This document shows positions 7,747 through 19,146 of a stretch of 64,000 nt of DNA, in pieces. The notes under the pieces are model-generated. The model made no database searches, was not told the origin of the DNA, and saw nothing but the letters and a program-made list of their open reading frames with translations. The stretch covers positions 7,302 to 71,301 of the forward strand of contig CAYILR010000020.1 of assembly GCA_964364175.1 (NCBI GenBank), in the 5' to 3' direction. Position numbers and translations under genes: made by a program. Numbering within the stretch: position 1 is the first letter of the stretch; each line of letters opens with the position of its first letter. Source of the DNA: an uncultured Bacteriovoracaceae bacterium. GTDB taxonomy: Bacteria > Bdellovibrionota > UBA1018.

Positions 7747-7747
<1 letters not shown>
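7316..7747 (-). CDS. Lys/Ala-rich basic protein (histone H1-like N-terminus), function unknown
   Basis: The N-terminus is TKTTKKKPVAIAKETKSETKSAKAPAKASKK. The gene lies immediately downstream of, and is coupled to, the sigma-54 activator gene. Confidence 0.45.
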
Positions 7748-9405
<1,658 letters not shown>

Positions 9406-11096: not shown

Positions 11097-11930
11097 CTAT
11101 TTTCCTGTACTGCTTTGCAAGAATTTTTCTGCTTTTTCTTTTGTCGTGCGATCGATCATTGCTTTGCGCGTGGGAAATTCGATTCTCAGAGGAAGTCCGG
11201 AATTTTCGAGATACCAAATCGAGAGCTGGCCCACGTGGTTGACCGCGATTTTTTTAGTATGAGTTTTTTTGCTGAACTCGTCATCGGGTTTGAGTTGAAT
11301 GGATCCCGGCTGCGGGGAGAAGGCAACTTCGAGGTTGTCTTCCAGGATGGCCTGAAAGCTATAAGTCTGACCGGTCTTCATTTTTTGCAATTTTTCATGA
11401 ATCAAAACTGGGAAGAGAGAAGAGAAGAAGGCCTCTGAATTGATTCGCTTGCGGATGGCAGGAAGTTCCTGTCCATTTTTGATGATTTTCACAATGAGAG
11501 TGCCATCTTGTTGAAGAGTGCCATCGATCAGCGTTTCGACGGATTGGGCGAGGCTGTGAAAATTAAATAAAATGGGTTTTAAAAATGGTTCCGAAGCGGC
11601 GACTGCAGTCAGGGATTCTTCGTTGATCGCGCCTTCTTCCAGCTTGAAAGTCTTGTTTTTGTAGACCCAACGTCCTGCGGCATCCAATTCACAGCGTTCG
11701 TTGTAGTAGGCGGCAGGCACAGCGCCTTGAAGCGTCAGAATGAACCAATCATCCCATAGGATTTTTGACGCTGCGGCCTGAGTGGAAGAAGTTGTGACTA
11801 CGGGTTTAGAAGCTGGTTTTTTAGGGGGTGCAGCTTGAGCTGGAGATAGGATAAAAAAAATCACTAGAACGGGGATCAAGATTCGTATTTTCATTCTATT
11901 TAAGAATAGAAGATTCATCCCCTCTGTCAA
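11097..11930 (-). CDS. Secreted hypothetical protein heading the permease operon
   Basis: It has a signal peptide (MKIRILIPVLVIFFILSPAQA). At 277 aa it is too short for a canonical family-5 substrate-binding protein. Confidence 0.45.
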   Translation of the reverse strand: MTEGMNLLFLNRMKIRILIPVLVIFFILSPAQAAPPKKPASKPVVTTSSTQAAASKILWDDWFILTLQGAVPAAYYNERCELDAAGRWVYKNKTFKLEEGAINEESLTAVAASEPFLKPILFNFHSLAQSVETLIDGTLQQDGTLIVKIIKNGQELPAIRKRINSEAFFSSLFPVLIHEKLQKMKTGQTYSFQAILEDNLEVAFSPQPGSIQLKPDDEFSKKTHTKKIAVNHVGQLSIWYLENSGLPLRIEFPTRKAMIDRTTKEKAEKFLQSSTGK

Positions 11931-12021
11931 GCAAGGGTGCTATCAGCGCGAAGCGTAGCACGATCTTTGATTTAAGACCGCCATCCTATCATCCGATCTG
12001 GAGTCTAGGAGGCTCTTCCAC

Positions 12022-14907
12022 GTGCGTTTGTGTGTCAATTTTTTGAACAACATGAATTTAATGGGATGCCTTTCAGGCGTTCTTGGGGGGCTCTTTTTGT
12101 TGCTGGGGCCGGCGGTGAGCTTTGCTGGTGAGGAGTGTGTGGTTTTCCCGGTGGGAGATGAGCAGGTGATTGCAACTTCAGGGAGCTACACCTCTCAGCT
12201 TTCTCCGGATGGGAAAAAAGTGGTTACTGTGCATCGTAATGGAACAGCGATCATCCGTGACCTGGAAAGTGGCAAGGAAACTAAAATTCAGCATCAGGCC
12301 GGGGTCAATTCCACTCAATTCTCACCGAATGGGAAAAAAATAGTCACTGCGTCTTATGATGAAACAGCGGTCATCCGTGATCTGGAAAATGGGAAGGAAA
12401 CTAAAATCCAGCATCAAGCCGGGGTCAATTCCGCTCAGTTCTCACCGGACGGGAAAAAAGTAGTCACTGCGTCGAGTGATGGAACAGGGGTCATCCGTGA
12501 CCTAGAAAGTGGGAAGGAAACCAAAATCCAGCATCAAGACCGGGTCAATTCCGCTCAGTTTTCTCCGGATGGGAAAAAAGTGGTCACTACGTCTTATGAT
12601 GGAACAGCGATCGTCCGTGACCTGGAAAGTGGGAAGGAAACCAAAATTCAGCATCGAAACGGAGTCATTTCTGCTCGGTTTTCTCCGGATGGGAAAAAAG
12701 TGGTGACTGCGTCTCTTGATCAAACAGCGATCATCCGTGACCTAGAAAGTGGGAAGGAAACCAAAATTCAGCATCAAGGCTGGGTCTATTCCGCGCAGTT
12801 TTCACCGGATGGGAAAAAAGTAGTCACTGCGTCAAGTGATGAAACAGCGATCGTCCGTGACCTGGAAAGTGGGAAGGAAACTAAAATCCAGCATCAAGAC
12901 CAGGTCAATTCCGCTCAGTTCTCACCAGATGGGAAAAAAGTAGTCACTGCGTCTTCTGATCGAACAGCGATCACCCATGATCTAGAAAGTGGGAAGGAAA
13001 CTAAAATCCAGCATTCAGGCTGGGTCAGTTCCGCTCAGTTCTCCCCCGATGGTAAAAAGTTATTCATTCAAACAGTCCGCGGTTTTTCGATTTTATCCCA
13101 AGACACGGTTTGTGTTTCTGATCCGCTAAAAATCAAAGCAGATACCTGCGTTCAGTGCTCCCAGCAAAAGCCGAGTGTGCTGGATTCATCTGTGTCGTCT
13201 CATTTGAGTCTGTGGATGGAAAAAGAGCGCTGCCAAGGCCCTTGGGATGAAAAAAAATGGGCTGGAGATACTTCTTTGCCCGCATCGAATCCTCTGCCGC
13301 CAAAAGAGGCTTTGAGTTTTCTGAAGCGCTTTCAAAAACCGGAAGGATTTGATCCTGCAAAACATCTTCCGATCTTACTCGCTATTTTTCGCTCAGGCCT
13401 GGTGCGTGAGGAGCCCTCGCTCATTCAAGGCACTCTACAGTCGGTTCTTTCACGTTCTACCTTGCTCTACGACCGATTGCTGAAAGACTTTCCCGAGGTG
13501 AATCAGCTGACTTCTTCTTCGCCGAATTCACTCGCGTGTCGAACGCTCGAAGAAGAAAAGCGGGTGCTAGGTGCTACAAAAAGATACCTCCTAACTCTCC
13601 TCGTTAAAAACGGCGAAAAAACAAAATTCGAAAACTGGGACTCCCTGAAGCCACTGGCCCCTGTTTTATCCAAGCTCCCTCAAGAACAAAAAGCAGCGTT
13701 CATCGAGCAAATCGGCCAGTCGCTTGCCAACGATGCCGCCGATTCGCCTGAATTTCACAATATTTTTGTGAGTAAAATTCTCAAATTCACCAAGCATGCG
13801 ATCGCCCCTTATTTTGGAGAGGCAAAAAAACCCATTTCGGATCTCACGTACATGCGCACAAAAAACTTAGTGGAGCCCCTGATTCTCGGGGACTTACCCA
13901 TCGAAGTGGTGGGTAGCAATCCCAAAGGCACGAAGAGTGCCTACGGCTTTTATTCGCAACTCCTAGACCCGATCAAAATTCCAGATACCATCCAACCCGG
14001 AATGGTGATTTCTGAAAGCAAGCTTCAGTGGAAGCAAGGAAAGGATCAGTACTCCGTTCCACTCAAGATCAGTATGAGGGAAGCAGGAAAAACCATTATC
14101 CCCGAAGGCGACTCTCCGGATTACGAAGGTCTTTGGAAAGACGGAAAACTCACGGGGTTAGTGATTGCCGGAAGCAATCTTGGAAAAGATGGGGCCACAG
14201 TCATCACAGAGTACTTACGTTATTATTTAAGGCAAGGATTTGAGTTTGACGAAGAGAAAAAATCGATTTCAAATCTCAAACAATTTCTCGGCGATCAAGT
14301 GAGCTCCGGAAAACTCGATTACCTGTTTAAAGAAGCGCACTCGGACGGAGATGAAAAAAACCTGTTTCGAGTCGATACGGAGGGGCTACTCATGCGTGGT
14401 ACGAAGACGCATCCCGACGGGAAAAAAGAAGAAGTGTTTTTAGTCGTTCCAAAAAGCGAGGGAGTGCAAAAAACCGAACTCATCCCCAATCAAGAGTTTG
14501 GGGAGTGGGTGAGAGGGCGAGAAAAAAATAACCAAGGCCAGCTCGTGTATTTCAACACGAGCTGCTGGTCAAAAACCAAAGCTTTACACGAGATCGAAGC
14601 GGCAAGTACATCGAAGCTCCTGAATATCCCAACGCTTACGATCACCCGAACTTTTGGAAACTACGAAGGAAACCCCGAGCGAGAGATGCTTCATGCGTTT
14701 CGGGAGCGAAAAAACTACTCCGAAATTCGCCAAGCCCTCTCCGAAGACGAATTCAATGGCTATGCCAAGGGAACGAAGAACGTGTTTATTTTTCCCGACG
14801 AAGAGCGCTACAAAGACGAGATCACCCGAGTGGTGGCCACTCCGCTCGACATCCAGCTGCAAATCCAAAAAAATGGCAAGCCTTACTCCATCGAGCAGGC
14901 TGAGTAG
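12022..14907 (+). CDS. Secreted 8-bladed beta-propeller (WD40/PD40-like) repeat protein with a roughly 600-aa C-terminal domain of unknown function
   Basis: It has a GTG start with a perfect AGGAGG RBS 9 nt upstream, and a signal peptide. It contains about eight tandem 40-aa repeats (SPDGKKVVTAS.D.TA.IRDLESGKETKIQHQ). Confidence 0.7.
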   Translation: MRLCVNFLNNMNLMGCLSGVLGGLFLLLGPAVSFAGEECVVFPVGDEQVIATSGSYTSQLSPDGKKVVTVHRNGTAIIRDLESGKETKIQHQAGVNSTQFSPNGKKIVTASYDETAVIRDLENGKETKIQHQAGVNSAQFSPDGKKVVTASSDGTGVIRDLESGKETKIQHQDRVNSAQFSPDGKKVVTTSYDGTAIVRDLESGKETKIQHRNGVISARFSPDGKKVVTASLDQTAIIRDLESGKETKIQHQGWVYSAQFSPDGKKVVTASSDETAIVRDLESGKETKIQHQDQVNSAQFSPDGKKVVTASSDRTAITHDLESGKETKIQHSGWVSSAQFSPDGKKLFIQTVRGFSILSQDTVCVSDPLKIKADTCVQCSQQKPSVLDSSVSSHLSLWMEKERCQGPWDEKKWAGDTSLPASNPLPPKEALSFLKRFQKPEGFDPAKHLPILLAIFRSGLVREEPSLIQGTLQSVLSRSTLLYDRLLKDFPEVNQLTSSSPNSLACRTLEEEKRVLGATKRYLLTLLVKNGEKTKFENWDSLKPLAPVLSKLPQEQKAAFIEQIGQSLANDAADSPEFHNIFVSKILKFTKHAIAPYFGEAKKPISDLTYMRTKNLVEPLILGDLPIEVVGSNPKGTKSAYGFYSQLLDPIKIPDTIQPGMVISESKLQWKQGKDQYSVPLKISMREAGKTIIPEGDSPDYEGLWKDGKLTGLVIAGSNLGKDGATVITEYLRYYLRQGFEFDEEKKSISNLKQFLGDQVSSGKLDYLFKEAHSDGDEKNLFRVDTEGLLMRGTKTHPDGKKEEVFLVVPKSEGVQKTELIPNQEFGEWVRGREKNNQGQLVYFNTSCWSKTKALHEIEAASTSKLLNIPTLTITRTFGNYEGNPEREMLHAFRERKNYSEIRQALSEDEFNGYAKGTKNVFIFPDEERYKDEITRVVATPLDIQLQIQKNGKPYSIEQAE
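12196..13065 (+). repeat. Tandem 120-bp DNA repeats (about 7.5 copies, more than 85% identical) encoding the propeller blades
   Basis: The periodicity is visible directly, for example 12241-12360 against 12361-12480. It produces spurious antisense ORFs at 12502..12723. Confidence 0.8.
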
Positions 14908-14993: not shown

Positions 14994-15223
14994 ACAAAAT
15001 ATTCGATTTGATTTGACAGAAAAACTACATTCAAAAATCGACTACAAGTAACTTCTCGAATCGCTAAAATAGGATCCAAATGTTTTTCTAAAATGGATTC
15101 GTCTGAGCGGATTTGTGTGCGTTTAGTTTGAGTTTTTCAGATTGAGTTTCGAATTAATAAATCGTGAAAATCGAGCATTTTAGAACTCATGTTAGGGTGA
15201 TTTCTCCATTAGGAAAGGGAATC

Positions 15224-15984
15224 AAAATGAAAAATTTAAATCTGCTTTCGGATCAGGAGCTCGTTCAACACACCCAAAGTTTAGTTTGCGAAGAACAAAA
15301 ACTGGTGGCTCAGGTTTTGGATTGCCTGGAGGAGGTTTTTGCTCGGAGGCTCTATCTCAAAATGGGCTACAGCTCGATGTTTGAATTTTGTAAGAATGAA
15401 TTGGGTTACAGTGACGGAACAGCTCAGATCCGGATCGATGCGTTAAAACTCACTCAGCTTCTTCCAGAGGTCAAAGAGGACATCCTAAAAAATAATGCGA
15501 CGATTACTCAGGCTGCTTTTTTGAATAAATTTCTTCGTCAGGAAAAAAAGATTACGAATGTAGAACGGCCGATCGAAGAGAAAAAGAACAGGACAAAACC
15601 CGAATCATCGGTCCAGACAAAACTCAAATTCAATTTGTTGTGGATAGCGAGTGTGCCGAGTTGATGGAACGGTTCAAAGAATTGTATCCTCAAGATTCGA
15701 GCCAGTACGTTGAGCTTTTTAAAAAGGCTCTCCAGATCGCGCTCAAAGCAAAGGATCCGAAAGAAAAATCCAAATCTAAAATTGAAGATTCACTTCACAC
15801 ATATGAAGTGAAAAAGCGTCCGTACATTTCCATCCCAGTCAGACGTGAGTTGCTCCGTTTGGCTCAAGGCGGTAGCTCGGAACCTAGCAATCTCACTGTG
15901 CTTTGCGCAGCCCACAACGCTTTCCGTGCAGTGGAAGAATATGGTGTTCAAAAAATGCGGCCGTTCTTGAGAGGGTTGAAGTAA
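15224..15984 (+). pseudogene. Frameshifted DUF222/HNH endonuclease-like gene
   Basis: Two overlapping ORFs in different frames (15164..15664 and 15640..15984) together rebuild one protein. The N-terminal part is homologous to the fragment at 54190, and the C-terminal part carries an HNH-like motif (GGSSEPSNLTVLCAAHN) whose cysteines are degenerated. Confidence 0.55.
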
Positions 15985-16173: not shown

Positions 16174-17118
16174 ATGCGGAGCGGAGGGGGAGCACAGAGC
16201 CAGATGAATCTAGAATCCATTGTTCGCGGTGAATTTGTGATTAATGCGGCGTACGGCATCTTGGGGCTAGCGGTTTTTATCGTCGCTCGAATGATCTTGC
16301 AGGAGCAAGAGACTCGCGCTGCCCAGGACAATATGGACGATCGCGACCGCAAGCCCAGCAGTGGCTTGGTGGGGCTGACTCGTCCATTTTTCACGCAATA
16401 TATTGTTCCCATGGTGCGAGGAAAGGCGTTTTGGGACAATAAGCGCCGTGATTTCAGACGCTTGATTATTTCTGCAGGCTTAAAAGAAGAATTAACTCCG
16501 GATGAATTCATTGCGTTCAAATTTTTCCTGATCGTATTTTTCCCATTAGTGGGCGGGATTTTGAAGGCGATGGATATGCTCGACGTCAGTGCTTTGACGG
16601 TTTTGGGCTCTGGAGTCGCAGGATGGTTTTATCCGAATTTCTGGGCAAATGGTCGAGTGGCGCGACGTCAAAAAGATATTCTGAAAGCAATGCCATTCAT
16701 CGTGGATTTGCTCGCACTTTCGACTGAAGCAGGATTGGATTTCGTCGGTGCGATCGGAAAGGTTTGCGAAAAGGCTGTTCCCAGTCCCCTGGTTGAGGAA
16801 TTGGGGCAAATGTTGAAAGAAATCAAAGTGGGATCCTCACGCCAGGAAGCGCTTCGCGAGATGTCGCTTCGGATCAATATGAAAGAAGTCAGTTCTTTCG
16901 TCGCGATTCTGATTTCAGCCGACCAAATGGGGGCGTCGATCGGAAAAACTCTTCGTCAACAATCTGAACAAATTCGAAACGCACGTATTATCGCTGCGGA
17001 AAAAGCGGGTGCTGCTGCATCACAAAAAGTCTTGTTGCCCATGGTGATATTTATTCTACCATGTGTATTTATTATGATTTTCGGACCGTTCGTTCTGGAG
17101 ACGCTCAATCAAAAATAA
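16174..17118 (+). CDS. tadC: Tad pilus assembly protein TadC (type II secretion system F family)
   Basis: It has a T2SS-F domain with 3-4 TM helices and is paralogous to the TadB gene at 31382. The true start may be MNLES at 16204. Confidence 0.75.
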   Translation: MRSGGGAQSQMNLESIVRGEFVINAAYGILGLAVFIVARMILQEQETRAAQDNMDDRDRKPSSGLVGLTRPFFTQYIVPMVRGKAFWDNKRRDFRRLIISAGLKEELTPDEFIAFKFFLIVFFPLVGGILKAMDMLDVSALTVLGSGVAGWFYPNFWANGRVARRQKDILKAMPFIVDLLALSTEAGLDFVGAIGKVCEKAVPSPLVEELGQMLKEIKVGSSRQEALREMSLRINMKEVSSFVAILISADQMGASIGKTLRQQSEQIRNARIIAAEKAGAAASQKVLLPMVIFILPCVFIMIFGPFVLETLNQK

Positions 17119-17122
17119 AACC

Positions 17123-17515
17123 ATGCCCAAAACCAAGAACACCCCCATCACTGTCGAACTCGTTAAGACTCATGTCAAAATTGCCGATCAGTGCCATGTG
17201 GCGGTGTCTTATATGGACCGTCTGAGGGGGTTGATTGGACGCCAATCATTGCCTGTGGGGGAGGGTGTGCTCTTCCCTCGGTGCAATAGCATCCATATGT
17301 GGTTTATGAGTATTCCAATTGATGTCGTTTTCTTGGACAAGTCGATCCAGGATGGCAATCGGTCCATCTGGAGGGTGACTTCTGTTCACGAGTCGGTGCG
17401 CCCTTGGAAGGCTCTGCCACTGAATGACTGGGCTGCAGCTGATGTGCTCGAATTGCCGGTAGGGACCATTCGACGACATTCTATTTATCCAGGAGACGAA
17501 ATATGTTCAAGCTGA
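17123..17515 (+). CDS. DUF192 domain protein
   Basis: The core SIHMWFMSIPIDVVFLD matches DUF192/COG1430. The 3' end overlaps the next gene. Confidence 0.6.
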   Translation: MPKTKNTPITVELVKTHVKIADQCHVAVSYMDRLRGLIGRQSLPVGEGVLFPRCNSIHMWFMSIPIDVVFLDKSIQDGNRSIWRVTSVHESVRPWKALPLNDWAAADVLELPVGTIRRHSIYPGDEICSS

Positions 17516-19146
17516 CGGTGGTCGCCGGACCTAACCGGGGCAGCAATTTCGTCGTGCAAGAGGGTGAGACAAGCATCGGTCGTCAGACAGGCAATGTGAT
17601 TGTGTTGCCCTCTTCAAAGGTTTCAAAAAAACACTGTTCGATCAATGTCAAAGACGGTGAAGTCAGCATCAAAGATGAGGGAAGTTCCAATGGGACTTTC
17701 GTGAATGGAGTTCTGACTCGTGCCAAGAAGCTCAACCCAGGCGATCGTATTGGAGTGGGAGATTTTGTTTTTGAAATTTCTGTTCCGGGTCTCAGAACGA
17801 ATCGGATTGCTCCCGCCCTGACAGGTTTTGGAAATGTTGTAGCAATGCCTGGAGTTTCGTTGCCAGGGACTGCGGCAAATGCAGCGGCATCCCCAGCGCT
17901 TACGGGTTCGATTGATTTGTCCTCGGCAGGGTCAGCAATGGATCCCAACGTGATGCCCAAAGATCCCAAAGGGAAGATCATTTGGCTTTTTGAAAATCGA
18001 CTGATGCCTGTTTTTTATGGTTTGATTTTGAAGCACGAGTGGAAAATCGTCGGCTTGGTCATGATGGGCGGGCTCTTGCTTGCGAATTTGATTGTGGCTG
18101 TTCAGCCAATTGTGCAGTCCGGAAGAAACGCAATGGTCCGAGAGACTATGAGGCGTGCGAGTTTGATCGCTAAACAAATTGTAGAAAAAAATTCAGCGGC
18201 CATGCTGAATCGCGCTGAAACAAAAACTGAAATTGGCAGTTTGGAGCGAGAAGACGGTGTTCGCATGGCGGTGCTCACCGATCTGGATTTGCGTGTGATC
18301 GCGCCAGGCACGAAAATGAATCAATACATCACGAGCGGTGGCGAGGCTGCAGAAGCCACTCGGGCGCGAAATGCGTTCCGGAAAGGCCGCGAAACTGGGA
18401 TATTCATGGAAATCGGAGACGGAATCGTAGTGGCCATTGAGCCAATGAAGATTCTGGATGCTTCGATTGGAAAAAATGTGGTTGTCGCAATGGCGATTGT
18501 GTCGATCGATGCCACTCTTTCGACTCCTGAAATCGGAGAAGTCGGGGTGACTTATTCTGAGACTCTGATCCTGACAGGGTTGATCACTCTGTTGGTTTTC
18601 TTGATTCTTTATAAGCTGACACTCAAGCCGTTGAATGTTTTGAACGATGACATCGATCGAGTTCTCAAGGGCGAAACCAATCAGGTCACCCGTGAATTCA
18701 AGTTCGAGGAGATTGGCAATTTGATCGACAACATCAATTCTGCTCTCCAAAGAATTCCGCGAGGCTCAGGCGGCGCGACCGTGGATAACTCCGGTGGGCC
18801 GGATGATTTCCTCAACCCGGTCAAGATCCTGCTGACTCTCACTAAAGTCGGTGTGTTGATTTTGGATGATCAGAAGAAAATCTTGGGGCTCAATCCATTT
18901 TTCGAGGAGATTTCCGGGATACGCTCGGACGGCTCGATCGGGCAAGAACCCAGCGCAGTGGCAAGGGATCAAGCTTTTGCACAGATGTCGGTGGATATGC
19001 TGAATCGGGCTCCTTCGGGTGGAGAGGGAGTGACGGAGGATTTCGATTTTTCTGGAGTGGCGTGCAAGATCTTTGTTTCAGCTTTGGGGACATCTGGAAC
19101 GGCCCCAAAAGGTTACATGATGCTGGTTTCGAGGAGTGAAACGTGA
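17503..19146 (+). CDS. FHA domain-containing membrane protein
   Basis: The N-terminal FHA domain is recognisable (SIGRQ...SKKHCSI...SSNGTFVNG). It is followed by two TM segments and a long C-terminal region. Confidence 0.8.
   Translation: MFKLTVVAGPNRGSNFVVQEGETSIGRQTGNVIVLPSSKVSKKHCSINVKDGEVSIKDEGSSNGTFVNGVLTRAKKLNPGDRIGVGDFVFEISVPGLRTNRIAPALTGFGNVVAMPGVSLPGTAANAAASPALTGSIDLSSAGSAMDPNVMPKDPKGKIIWLFENRLMPVFYGLILKHEWKIVGLVMMGGLLLANLIVAVQPIVQSGRNAMVRETMRRASLIAKQIVEKNSAAMLNRAETKTEIGSLEREDGVRMAVLTDLDLRVIAPGTKMNQYITSGGEAAEATRARNAFRKGRETGIFMEIGDGIVVAIEPMKILDASIGKNVVVAMAIVSIDATLSTPEIGEVGVTYSETLILTGLITLLVFLILYKLTLKPLNVLNDDIDRVLKGETNQVTREFKFEEIGNLIDNINSALQRIPRGSGGATVDNSGGPDDFLNPVKILLTLTKVGVLILDDQKKILGLNPFFEEISGIRSDGSIGQEPSAVARDQAFAQMSVDMLNRAPSGGEGVTEDFDFSGVACKIFVSALGTSGTAPKGYMMLVSRSET

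What the first reader, a model, noticed from the sequence alone, without database searches (positions are those of the whole stretch)
12196..13065. Eight beta-propeller blades encoded by near-identical 120-bp tandem DNA repeats in a secreted 961-aa protein
The 40-aa WD40/PD40-like units (SPDGKKVVTAS-D-TA-IRDLESGKETKIQHQ) are more than 85% identical at the nucleotide level, which is far more than blades of a propeller normally are. This indicates recent expansion or ongoing concerted evolution, and it makes copy number recombinationally unstable, potentially varying the protein between strains. The repeat array is joined to an unrelated C-terminal domain of about 600 aa with no recognisable family. 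Long perfect repeats are also a classic site for assembly collapse or expansion.
Basis: seen in the sequence. Interest (0 to 1): 0.6.

Follow-up and report, generated by a model that had tools for sequence, protein, structure and literature searches.

The report
Recently amplified WD40 blades, secreted protein
A predicted exported protein of an uncultured predatory-type bacterium (Bdellovibrionota) has a ring-shaped binding domain whose blades were copied recently from one blade and differ mainly on the binding face; this kind of repeat is already well documented, and the more novel part is the uncharacterised, possibly protease-like tail.

Summary
The repeat is real but overstated. ORF 12022-14907 (961 aa, AGGAGG ribosome-binding site, signal-peptide-like N-terminus) carries a 120-bp tandem array (TRF 12194-13058, 7.2 copies, 84% matches, no indels) encoding eight 40-aa WD40 units. 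Only the six inner units are highly alike (80-90% nt, mean 85.7%). The outer two are 53-66%. The longest exact repeat is 39 nt, so there are no "long perfect repeats" and assembly collapse is unlikely.

Identical amino acids use the same codon in 75-79% of unit pairs, against 41% expected from codon usage and 17-39% against units of homologues. The blades therefore share recent ancestry, by amplification or gene conversion. Variation concentrates at five or six positions flanking a conserved Val and a conserved Asp. These match the d-a loop and b-c turn sites of the propeller's top face that are diversified in fungal HNWD proteins.

The C-terminal 600 aa define a Bdellovibrionota-restricted family (about 411 clusters) with no Pfam, NCBIfam or PDB sequence match. 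Its confident AlphaFold model is a helical domain, a beta-sandwich and an alpha/beta domain. Invariant Asn/His/Cys sit in a legumain/caspase-like order, but fold matches are weak.

Highly repetitive propellers are a known class, so this is a new member of a known kind.

The parts
12007..12012 (+). Shine-Dalgarno-like AGGAGG, 9 nt upstream of the GTG start
   Evidence: Read directly from the sequence printed. It supports GTG 12022 as the start codon.
12022..14907 (+). Whole gene: 961-aa exported WD40 / C-terminal-module protein
   Evidence: ORF list. An identical protein, P0001, is in the NCBI-derived collection.
12022..12126 (+). Predicted Sec signal peptide (aa 1-35, MRLCVNFLNNMNLMGCLSGVLGGLFLLLGPAVSFA|GEE)
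   Evidence: Charged n-region, hydrophobic core and small-residue S-F-A site, read from the translation. Homologues have equivalent hydrophobic N-termini followed by a conserved Cys. No signal-peptide predictor was available, so this is inference.
12136..12195 (+). N-terminal conserved Cys39 plus a strand-d-like segment (CVVFPVGDEQVIATSGSY). It probably supplies the eighth outer strand that closes the ring.
   Evidence: Family consensus C-x4-G. The segment resembles the KETKIQH strand-d segments. Ring closure is inferred; the propeller was not modelled.
12154..13113 (+). Eight 40-aa WD40 units (8 x 120 nt) forming the beta-propeller
12274..12993 (+). Six highly similar inner units (units 2-7): nt identity 80-90%, aa identity 72-85%
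13186..13815 (+). All-helical (HEAT/TOG-like) domain, aa 389-598
   Evidence: AlphaFold2 model, pLDDT 91. The only weak Foldseek hits are CLASP2 TOG and other alpha-solenoids.
13837..14076 (+). Beta-sandwich domain, aa 606-685
   Evidence: DSSP of the model.
14101..14904 (+). Alpha/beta domain with the family's invariant residues, aa 694-961. It is a candidate legumain/caspase-like (clan CD) cysteine hydrolase.
   Evidence: Model pLDDT 92.7. The best-probability annotated fold hits are legumain and a viral C14 caspase-domain protein; both are non-significant.
14176..14178 (+). Asn719 in (V/I)AGSN, directly after strand beta1
   Evidence: At least 90% conserved. It has the same position and motif as Asn42 (VAGSN) of human legumain, whose sequence was verified against the PDB.
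14338..14340 (+). His773 in the invariant KEAHSDGDEKN motif, directly after strand beta3
   Evidence: Invariant in 40 of 40 sequences.
14563..14565 (+). Cys848 in the invariant N-x-S-C-x-S-x-x-K motif, between strand beta4 and a helix
   Evidence: Invariant in 40 of 40 sequences. It is the seventh, unpaired Cys of the mature protein.

Best explanation
The array encodes the eight blades of a WD40 beta-propeller at the N-terminus of a Sec-exported protein from an uncultured Bdellovibrionota bacterium.

**Origin of the repeat.** Six inner blades descend from one blade that was amplified in this lineage, or was kept homogeneous by gene conversion. They have since diverged by about 15% in nucleotides.

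**Pattern of divergence.** The framework residues are under purifying selection. The amino-acid differences pile up at five or six positions per blade:
- the three residues after the conserved His, and the residue after the conserved Val (the d-a loop);
- the two residues flanking the conserved Asp (the b-c turn).

By analogy with solved WD40 propellers, these positions form the top, ligand-binding face. Each blade therefore offers a different contact patch on a constant scaffold.

**Proposed function (inferred).** The propeller is the target-recognition module. It is fused, through a helical domain and a beta-sandwich, to a conserved C-terminal alpha/beta domain. That domain has invariant Asn719, His773 and Cys848 at the ends of strands beta1, beta3 and beta4, which is the arrangement of legumain/caspase-type (clan CD) cysteine peptidases. 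I propose that the protein acts outside the cytoplasm, in the periplasm, the medium or the prey, as a cysteine hydrolase that recruits its substrate through the propeller.

**What is shown and what is inferred.** Shown: the repeat anatomy, the shared ancestry of units at the codon level, the positions of variability, the family distribution, and the confident domain models. Inferred: export, top-face binding, catalytic activity and any role in predation.
For: **Repeat anatomy**
- establish the ORF, the array and the eight units.
- WD40 assignment: Pfam 142 bits against a cutoff of 27.

**Shared ancestry of units**
- Identical codons at identical residues: 0.75-0.79 within the gene, 0.41 expected from codon usage, 0.17-0.39 against homologues' units.
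- Unit identity is 0.82-0.89 within a gene and 0.50-0.70 between genes, with 3-24 fixed differences in the 78-nt core.

**Selection pattern**
- Framework dN/dS is 0.13. Variable columns have pN 0.455 against pS 0.085 (the sites were chosen post hoc).
- The same columns have the top entropy in four separately homogenised arrays: window, L001, L002 and L003.
- They match the pairs flanking conserved residues in the d-a loop and b-c turn that are under positive selection in Podospora HNWD proteins (PMC1805685).

**Independent, sporadic amplification**
- Only 4 of 27 analysed family members have DNA-level repeats. This fits PMC9218822.

**Export**
- The N-terminus is signal-like. There are conserved Cys residues on either side of the propeller. 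The mature protein has 7 Cys.

**C-terminal module**
- About 411 clusters match the profile at E<=1e-3; every relative with a taxon label (33 genome loci; two named proteins) is Bdellovibrionota.
- AlphaFold2 pLDDT is 91 and 92.7.
- KEAHSDGD..N and N.SC.S..K are invariant.
- The order of secondary-structure elements is b1-a1-b2-a2-b3-His-(hairpins)-a3-b4-Cys-a4-b5.
- The best-probability annotated structural matches in two libraries are both clan CD peptidases: legumain 5obt_A (prob 0.51, TM 0.32-0.37, rmsd 6.5 over 222 columns) and a viral C14 caspase-domain protein (E=0.019, prob 0.51).
Against: **Against the peptidase assignment**
- No fold match reaches significance. All Foldseek E-values exceed 0.007 and TM-scores are below 0.4.
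- hhalign of the family profile against human legumain gave probability 0.6% and a different register.
- No Pfam, NCBIfam, PADLOC or PHROG model matches.
- The invariant motif is much longer than a catalytic dyad needs. It weakly resembles an EF-hand loop, so a metal-binding or non-proteolytic role is possible.

**Against other parts of the model**
- The propeller itself was not modelled, so eight closed blades and the top-face location of the variable sites rest on sequence analogy.
- The dN/dS contrast uses sites picked because they vary.
- Synonymous divergence of about 0.3 means the amplification is not recent. Ongoing conversion is not demonstrated.
- There are no expression, localisation, read-level or strain data.
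- No conserved neighbouring gene hints at a pathway.
Confidence: 0.5

Rival explanations
1. The propeller is a recently amplified binding scaffold, as above, but the C-terminal 600 aa are not an enzyme. They would be a structural, adhesive or metal-binding module, so the protein is a secreted adaptor or adhesin.
For: - No significant sequence or fold match to any peptidase.
- The invariant KEAHSDGDE motif gives weak EF-hand-like hits to calmodulin (E=0.007).
- A large helical solenoid and a beta-sandwich are typical interaction modules.
Against: - Eleven consecutive invariant or nearly invariant polar residues, plus an invariant Cys at a strand-to-helix junction, across relatives that are only 26-45% identical to it overall, are typical of active sites.
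- The Cys count is odd, which leaves Cys848 free.
- The only annotated fold hits of moderate probability are clan CD peptidases, in two separate libraries.
Confidence: 0.27
2. The similarity of the blades reflects only strong protein-level constraint on ancient blades. There was no recent amplification or concerted evolution.
For: - Framework dN/dS is low (0.13).
- The core amino-acid consensus FSPDGKKVVTAS.DGTAIIRDL is shared with homologue L001, at 78% aa identity between genes.
Against: - Synonymous sites are homogenised within each gene: 0.75-0.96 identical codons, against 0.41 expected and 0.17-0.56 between genes.
- There are gene-specific fixed nucleotide differences.
- Most family members have blades with no detectable internal periodicity (lag identity about 0.1).
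Confidence: 0.05
3. The array, or its copy number of eight, is an assembly artefact caused by collapse or expansion of repeats in a metagenome assembly.
For: - The contig is evidently from a metagenome-assembled genome; all relatives are MAGs.
- Repeats are a known assembly hazard (PMC9218822).
- The two other complete repetitive homologues have seven blades.
Against: - Every unit is unique. No 41-mer recurs, and only one 39-mer does.
- The frame is intact with zero indels.
- There are eight strand-d-like segments and eight a-b-c segments, which is a complete set for a closed propeller.
- An identical protein is held in the NCBI-derived collection (P0001); it may derive from the same assembly.
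Confidence: 0.06
4. The hypervariable codons are written by a dedicated mutagenic system, such as a diversity-generating retroelement, rather than by ordinary mutation plus selection.
For: Variation is concentrated in a few codons per unit. DGR-diversified sensor proteins exist in bacteria (PMC10907252; abstract only).
Against: - There is no second copy (template repeat) of the unit anywhere else in the 64-kb window, by blastn or tblastn.
- Variable codons do not show an adenine-specific pattern; examples are GCC GGG, GAC CGG, AAC GGA and GGC TGG.
- Differences are between paralogous units, not between a template and a variable region.
Confidence: 0.02

Closest known systems
Highly repetitive (recently amplified) beta-propellers, e.g. 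the WRAP domain of Nostoc Npun_R6612 and about 9,900 other proteins (Pereira & Lupas 2022, PMC9218822)
   Same: - Blades have more than 60% median identity (0.725 here).
- They are of WD40 type.
- The first strand is non-amplified and conserved.
- Close homologues carry arrays whose units cluster by gene, which indicates independent amplification.
- Blade numbers of 7-8.
   Different: - Here the propeller is in an exported protein of Bdellovibrionota.
- It is fused N-terminally to a family-specific 600-aa module that no domain library contains.
- The array is moderately old (dS about 0.3), not near-identical.
Podospora anserina HNWD/NWD proteins (HET-E, HET-D, HET-R): NACHT-WD40 NLR-like receptors with concertedly evolving WD repeats (PMC1805685, PMC2873952)
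   Same: - The framework is homogenised.
- Hypervariable residues occur in pairs flanking a conserved residue, in the d-a loop and the b-c turn.
- Repeat number varies between relatives.
   Different: - There is no NACHT/NTPase or HET domain.
- The protein is bacterial and has a signal peptide.
- The propeller is N-terminal.
- No evidence of unit exchange among paralogues.
- Identity is lower than in HNWD repeats.
- Positive selection was not formally tested.
Legumain / asparaginyl endopeptidase (MEROPS C13) and other clan CD peptidases (caspases C14, gingipains C25, clostripain C11, separase C50)
   Same: - The catalytic-type residues come in the order Asn, His, Cys, each just after a hydrophobic beta-strand.
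- The (V/I)AGSN motif is identical to legumain's Asn42 motif.
- A C-x-S follows the Cys, as in legumain's EACESGS.
- The order of secondary-structure elements is the same.
- The best-probability annotated fold hits are these peptidases.
   Different: - There is no significant sequence or Foldseek match.
- The His-Cys spacing is 75 aa against about 41 aa, because of inserted hairpins.
- The invariant HSDGDEKN extension is absent from known clan CD families.
- Activity has not been tested.
Bacterial effector-WD40 conflict-system proteins (TIR-WD40, caspase-WD40)
   Same: The closest propeller relatives outside the family (up to 53% identity) include TIR-domain and caspase-family WD40 proteins. 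They share the logic of an effector domain plus a repeat sensor.
   Different: - Those proteins carry the effector at the N-terminus (from established knowledge of these families, not checked here) and, in the names and Pfam lists seen, no comparable C-terminal module.
- Here the domain order is reversed and there is a signal peptide.
- There is no PADLOC match.
Prolyl oligopeptidase / DPP-IV (S9) and TolB-type propeller proteins
   Same: An N-terminal beta-propeller precedes a C-terminal hydrolase-like domain. JGI named homologue P0007 "dipeptidyl aminopeptidase/acylaminoacyl peptidase".
   Different: - There is no S9 catalytic domain or Ser-Asp-His triad.
- The TolB model scores 109 bits against a cutoff of 343.
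- The JGI name reflects only the propeller.

Membership tests
WD40 repeat beta-propeller (Pfam PF00400) | Whole-protein score above Pfam's gathering threshold, with several repeats | tested here: met
   142.2 bits against a cutoff of 27, with 6 stretches passing.
WD40 repeat beta-propeller (Pfam PF00400) | About 40-aa units with a conserved His near the start, an Asp in the b-c turn and a W/F-D-like end of strand c | tested here: met
   The units read ..IQH-xxx-V-x-S..FSPDGKKVVTAS-x-D-x-TA-x-IRDL. His and Asp are conserved. WD is replaced by RD.
WD40 repeat beta-propeller (Pfam PF00400) | Seven or eight blades closing into a ring | tested here: inconclusive
   There are eight a-b-c segments and eight strand-d-like segments.
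Highly repetitive beta-propellers (criterion of PMC9218822) | Median pairwise blade identity above 60% | tested here: met
   The median aa identity over all 28 blade pairs is 0.725, and 0.80 for units 2-7. The criterion is quoted.
Highly repetitive beta-propellers (criterion of PMC9218822) | Blades of one gene share nucleotides that differ from those of homologues (independent amplification or homogenisation) | tested here: met
HNWD-type diversifying WD repeats | Hypervariable residues in the d-a loop and b-c turn, flanking conserved residues | tested here: met
   The entropy peaks fall in the same columns in four arrays. They match the pattern of codons 7/9 and 25/27 in PMC1805685. Structural placement is by analogy only.
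HNWD-type diversifying WD repeats | Statistically supported positive selection at those codons | tested here: inconclusive
   pN is 0.455 against pS 0.085 at the variable columns, but the sites were chosen post hoc and there are only six units.
HNWD-type diversifying WD repeats | Repeat-number polymorphism between strains and unit exchange among paralogues | not testable with these tools
   No strains or reads were available. Blade number is 8 here and 7 in two distant homologues. No paralogue lies in the window.
HNWD-type diversifying WD repeats | NACHT/NTPase domain (NLR architecture) | tested here: not met
   No NTPase family appears among the Pfam or NCBIfam hits.
Clan CD cysteine peptidases (legumain C13, caspase C14) | Catalytic His then Cys, each after a hydrophobic strand of an alpha/beta sandwich (plus Asn after beta1 in C13) | tested here: met
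   Asn719, His773 and Cys848 follow strands b1, b3 and b4 in the model. This holds at the level of sequence and predicted secondary structure only; 3D distances could not be read.
Clan CD cysteine peptidases (legumain C13, caspase C14) | Significant structural similarity to a clan CD member | tested here: inconclusive
   - Legumain 5obt_A: E=0.11, prob 0.51, TM 0.32-0.37.
- Viral C14 protein: E=0.019, prob 0.51.
- Nothing reaches E<=1e-3.
Clan CD cysteine peptidases (legumain C13, caspase C14) | Sequence-profile match to Peptidase_C13, C14, C11 or C25 | tested here: not met
   There are no Pfam hits even at E<=10, for 17 members. hhalign against human legumain gives probability 0.6%.
Clan CD cysteine peptidases (legumain C13, caspase C14) | Cys-dependent peptidase or transpeptidase activity | not testable with these tools
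   This needs biochemistry.
TolB / S9 peptidase propeller proteins | Score above the TolB equivalog cutoff, or presence of an S9 catalytic domain | tested here: not met
   TIGR02800 scores 109 bits against a cutoff of 343. The C-terminal part has no Peptidase_S9 hit.
Diversity-generating retroelement target | A template repeat and a reverse transcriptase nearby | tested here: not met
   There is no other copy of the unit in the 64-kb window. The rest of the genome was not available.

The most novel reading that the evidence does not exclude
The family would be a previously undescribed, Bdellovibrionota-specific clan-CD-like cysteine peptidase that is exported. Its substrate choice would be set by a WD40 propeller that different lineages repeatedly rebuild from a single blade and then diversify on the binding face. 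That amounts to an extracellular "sensor plus protease" in predatory bacteria, tuned to variable targets such as prey envelope proteins, and would mirror outside the cell the repeat-diversification logic of NLR-type immune receptors.
Probability: 0.25. Interest if true: 0.6.

Novelty: new member of a known kind. Interest (0 to 1): 0.35.

Why it matters
As a repeat phenomenon it adds one more example to a well-catalogued class. It also shows the class in a phylum and an architecture (signal peptide, propeller, unknown module) not named in the parts of the papers I read.

Its practical value is as an entry point to an uncharacterised protein family. That family has about 400 sequence clusters and was found only in Bdellovibrionota among relatives with a taxon label. 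It has a confident structural model, an invariant Asn/His/Cys set that can be mutated, and a recognition domain whose specificity-determining positions can be read off the repeat alignment.

If the tail is a protease and the propeller selects prey or envelope targets, the family would bear on how predatory bacteria recognise and process diverse prey.

Tried and rejected
**Structure libraries**
- Foldseek with the whole 597-aa C-terminal model gave only weak alpha-solenoid hits and spurious aldolase hits.

**Sequence tests of the legumain idea**
- hhalign of family profile A3 against human legumain gave probability 0.6% in the wrong register. The legumain sequence was recalled from memory and then verified as identical to PDB 4fgu/7fqh.
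- A database search seeded with legumain, meant to build a diverse C13 profile, listed only vertebrate orthologues at 84% identity or more. It was useless for that purpose and cost one search.
- A profile search of PDB sequences returned only calmodulin EF-hand hits on the KEAHSDGDE motif (E about 0.007-0.09). I rejected these as homology. The model has a strand and loop of an alpha/beta domain there, and only a DxDGD-like string is shared. A metal-binding role for the motif stays open.

**Context and origin**
- There is no conserved neighbouring gene across 37 loci, so there is no operon-based functional hint.
- The DGR idea was rejected.
- Known defence systems (PADLOC) and phage families (PHROGs) gave no match.
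- GC content of the gene (0.46-0.49) matches the flanks, so there is no sign of recent horizontal transfer.

**Other**
- A literature hit pairing Bdellovibrio with WD40 (PMC6851490) proved irrelevant.
- Terminator-like and ORF calls inside the array, on the other strand or in other frames, are by-products of the repeat.


Full report
**1. What is there**

The window has a 961-aa ORF on the + strand at 12022-14907. It starts with GTG, nine bases downstream of AGGAGG at 12007-12012.

Tandem Repeats Finder reports one array at 12194-13058. It has period 120, 7.2 copies, 84% matches, no indels and score 1142. The repeat finder puts six 300-nt copies in register at exact 120-nt spacing. These coordinates match the finding (12196-13065).

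Translated in a 40-aa register from nt 12154, the region gives eight units. Each has an [FL]SP[DN]G anchor at exact 40-residue spacing.

Pfam WD40 scores 142 bits against a gathering cutoff of 27 (E=2e-42). PD40 gives E=5.6e-10, and the TolB model is far below its cutoff.

The periodicity is far beyond chance. Lag-120 identity is 0.786, against at most 0.31 in 200 codon-shuffled controls.

**2. How alike the units really are**

| Units compared | nt identity | aa identity |
|---|---|---|
| Units 2-7, pairwise | 80-90% (mean 85.7%) | 72-85% (mean 80%) |
| Unit 1 vs units 2-7 | 59-66% | not summarised |
| Unit 8 vs units 2-7 | 53-59% | not summarised |

Unit 1 diverges in its N-terminal half and unit 8 in its C-terminal half.

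- The longest exact direct repeat is 39 nt. No 41-mer recurs in the array.
- "Eight near-identical" units and "long perfect repeats" are therefore overstatements.
- With no shared 41-mers, zero indels and eight distinct units, assembly collapse or expansion is unlikely. Read-level confirmation was not possible.

**3. Why the units are alike**

Nei-Gojobori counts among units 2-7 give pS 0.26 (dS about 0.32) and dN 0.12. So the amplification is not very recent.

Protein-level constraint alone does not explain the similarity:

| Comparison | Fraction of identical codons at identical residues |
|---|---|
| Window units, within the gene | 0.75-0.79 |
| Expected from codon usage of the gene's own C-terminal half | 0.41 |
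| Window units vs units of three repetitive homologues | 0.17-0.39 |

I recovered DNA for three homologues with repetitive arrays: L001/P0004, L002/P0010 and L003/P0007.

- Units cluster by gene: 0.82-0.89 nt identity within a gene and 0.50-0.70 between genes.
- There are 3-24 gene-specific fixed differences in the 78-nt core, and the linkers are entirely different.
- This is the signature of independent amplification from a single blade, or of concerted evolution.
- Pereira & Lupas describe it for beta-propellers in general. They catalogued 9,919 proteins with more than 60% median blade identity, most often WD40 with 7 blades (PMC9218822).
- By their criterion this protein qualifies, with a median blade identity of 0.725.

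**4. Where the units differ**

Within units 2-7, six columns have three or more residues. They are:

- the second and third of the three residues after the conserved His;
- the residue after the conserved Val;
- the two residues flanking the conserved Asp;
- one strand-c position.

Framework columns have dN/dS 0.13. The variable columns have pN 0.455 against pS 0.085. That contrast is circular, because the sites were chosen for being variable.

An independent check removes part of the circularity. The same columns (H-x-x-x-V-x and S-x-D-x) carry the highest entropy in all four separately homogenised arrays.

They correspond to the pattern in the Podospora HNWD proteins. There, codons 7/9 and 25/27 flank conserved residues in the d-a loop and the b-c turn. 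They lie on the top interaction face and are under positive selection (PMC1805685).

The most economical reading is a constant scaffold with blade-specific contact residues on the ligand-binding face. The structural placement is by analogy.

**5. Blade number**

The window has eight a-b-c segments. It also has eight strand-d-like segments: seven KETKIQH segments and an N-terminal DEQVIAT segment. That is a complete set for an eight-bladed ring closed by the N-terminal strand.

The two other complete repetitive homologues have seven anchors. Blade number therefore differs within the family, although between distant relatives (about 43-46% identical in the C-terminal region), not between strains.

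**6. The rest of the protein**

The C-terminal ~600 aa have no Pfam, NCBIfam or PDB-sequence match.

Family distribution:

- A word-indexed search finds 40 relatives. Most are ~840-1045-aa proteins; about a quarter are 430-630 aa.
- A profile of the last 273 aa finds 411 cluster representatives at E<=1e-3, 302 of them at E<=1e-30, among 1.84 billion representatives.
- A scan of one genome per species finds 33 loci. Almost all carry Bdellovibrionota-lineage labels (Bdellovibrionia, Oligoflexia, Bacteriovoracaceae, Pseudobdellovibrionaceae); one is labelled only 'uncultured bacterium' and one 'Deltaproteobacteria bacterium'.
- The best genome match is 53% identical, so the window's own organism is not a species representative.
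- Of 23 full-length genome representatives, none has DNA-level repeats or detectable internal periodicity in its N-terminal region.
- Many relatives have divergent WD40 blades (for example P0002, P0006, P0008, P0012, P0016). Others have N-terminal regions that Pfam does not recognise (sequences).
- Highly repetitive arrays are thus sporadic in the family: 4 of the 27 analysed.

AlphaFold2 with the family alignment gives a confident model (pLDDT 91.1, pTM 0.88). Numbered within the C-terminal query, it comprises:

- a ten-helix domain (aa 25-234);
- a beta-sandwich (aa 242-321);
- an alpha/beta domain (aa 345-597). Re-predicted alone, this domain has pLDDT 92.7.

**7. A candidate active site**

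Across 40 sequences that are only 26-45% identical to the window protein, the invariant residues include K-E-A-H-S-D-G-D..N and N.S-C.S..K. G-S-N after the first strand is nearly invariant. In full-length numbering these are Asn719, His773 and Cys848.

In the model they sit immediately after strands b1, b3 and b4. The element order is b1-a1-b2-a2-b3-His-(hairpins)-a3-b4-Cys-a4-b5. From established knowledge of clan CD peptidases, this is the residue order and topology of legumain (Asn42/His148/Cys189) and of caspases.

Motif comparison with human legumain, whose sequence I verified against PDB entries:

| Position | Human legumain | This protein |
|---|---|---|
| After b1 (Asn) | VAGSN | IAGSN |
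| After b4 (Cys) | EACES | TSCWS |

The formal tests are weak.

- Foldseek against PDB finds nothing at E<=1e-3. The hit with the highest probability and TM-score is Arabidopsis legumain 5obt_A (E=0.11, prob 0.51, TM 0.32-0.37, rmsd 6.5 over 222 columns).
- Foldseek against viral models ranks a "Peptidase C14 caspase domain" protein second (E=0.019, prob 0.51). An uncharacterised phage protein ranks third (prob 0.89).
- hhalign against legumain fails.

I therefore treat "clan-CD-like cysteine hydrolase" as the leading hypothesis, at roughly 50-60%. It is not a membership.

A weak EF-hand-like match of the HSDGDE motif to calmodulin may hint at metal binding. It is not evidence of homology.

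**8. Location and context**

The N-terminus (aa 1-35) has a basic residue, a hydrophobic core and an S-F-A|G site. Homologues have comparable N-termini followed by a conserved Cys.

A Cys precedes the propeller (Cys39) and another follows it (Cys364), and several more are conserved. The mature protein has seven Cys, which is consistent with three disulfides and a free Cys848. This supports export, but it is inference.

The gene stands alone.

- It lies next to, and on the opposite strand from, a small secreted-looking ORF and an ABC-permease pair.
- Downstream lie two small low-GC ORFs, then T2SS-F/Tad-like, DUF192 and FHA-PAS genes.
- No neighbour is conserved across 37 loci.
- There is no PADLOC or PHROG match.

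The nearest propellers outside the family are at most 53% identical. They include TIR-WD40 and caspase-WD40 proteins. There is no evidence of unit sharing with other genes, and no second copy of the unit in the window. This also argues against a DGR.

**9. Verdict**

Its strength is overstated: six units at about 86% identity, not eight near-identical units, and no perfect repeats.
- The evolutionary interpretation, recent amplification or concerted evolution, is supported at codon level.
- The artefact worry is largely removed.
- The phenomenon belongs to a well-described class, so the finding is a new member of a known kind.
- The more interesting by-product is an uncharacterised family that appears confined to Bdellovibrionota. 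It has a confident model and an invariant Asn/His/Cys set. Its recognition domain has been rebuilt from a single blade in several lineages.

Interest 0.35.

Noticed in passing
window 15164-15984: Two small ORFs (166 aa and 114 aa) overlap by 25 nt in different frames, in a low-GC stretch (0.41 against about 0.48). The second has a weak HNH-endonuclease match (phrog_7785, E=0.002). Together they look like a frameshifted or decaying mobile-element gene just downstream of the propeller gene.
   Followed up: partly
L002 557-1696 and 4703-6130; L003 2809-3981; L004 2454-3665; L006 2121-3545; L008 6062-7354; L021 5331-6512: Orphan ATPase genes lie next to family members in several unrelated loci. 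AAA_14/DUF4143 ATPases are found in L002, L004, L008 and L021. ATPase_2/AAA_16 (DUF234-type) genes are found in L002, L003 and L006. Two of the three repetitive homologues are among these loci. This could be chance or could mark variable genomic islands.
   Followed up: partly
window 14329-14361 (aa 770-780, KEAHSDGDEKN): The family's invariant motif gives weak EF-hand-like hits to calmodulin (IREADVDGDG), with E about 0.007-0.09. This may indicate a Ca2+-binding loop next to the candidate catalytic His.
   Followed up: partly
window 12408-12422, 12528-12543, 13008-13023 (minus strand); ORFs 12502-12723 (-) and 12509-12706 (+): Terminator-like hairpins recur in phase with the 120-nt repeat (at 120-nt multiples). 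There are also out-of-frame and antisense ORFs inside the array. Both are by-products of the repeat, not independent features.
   Followed up: yes
L011 and L014 (assembly JBGAWT01); L012 and L016 (assembly CAZFMF01): Some Bdellovibrionota MAGs carry two paralogues of the family on different contigs. Paralogue exchange of blades could therefore be tested in those genomes.
   Followed up: no
window 11097-11930 (-): A 277-aa ORF on the opposite strand next to the propeller gene has a signal-peptide-like N-terminus and no Pfam or PHROG family. It is another uncharacterised exported protein.
   Followed up: partly
window 7747-9405 (-), 16174-17118 (+), 17503-19146 (+): Flanking genes include a GAF-domain sigma-54 activator, a T2SS-F/TadC-like membrane protein and an FHA-PAS protein. 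No link to the propeller gene was found.
   Followed up: partly
BFVD hit A0A8S5MXG5 (Myoviridae sp. ctWaE18): An uncharacterised phage protein is the best structural match to the alpha/beta domain by probability (0.89, TM 0.34-0.38, rmsd 5.4 over 223 columns). It may belong to the same unannotated fold family.
   Followed up: no
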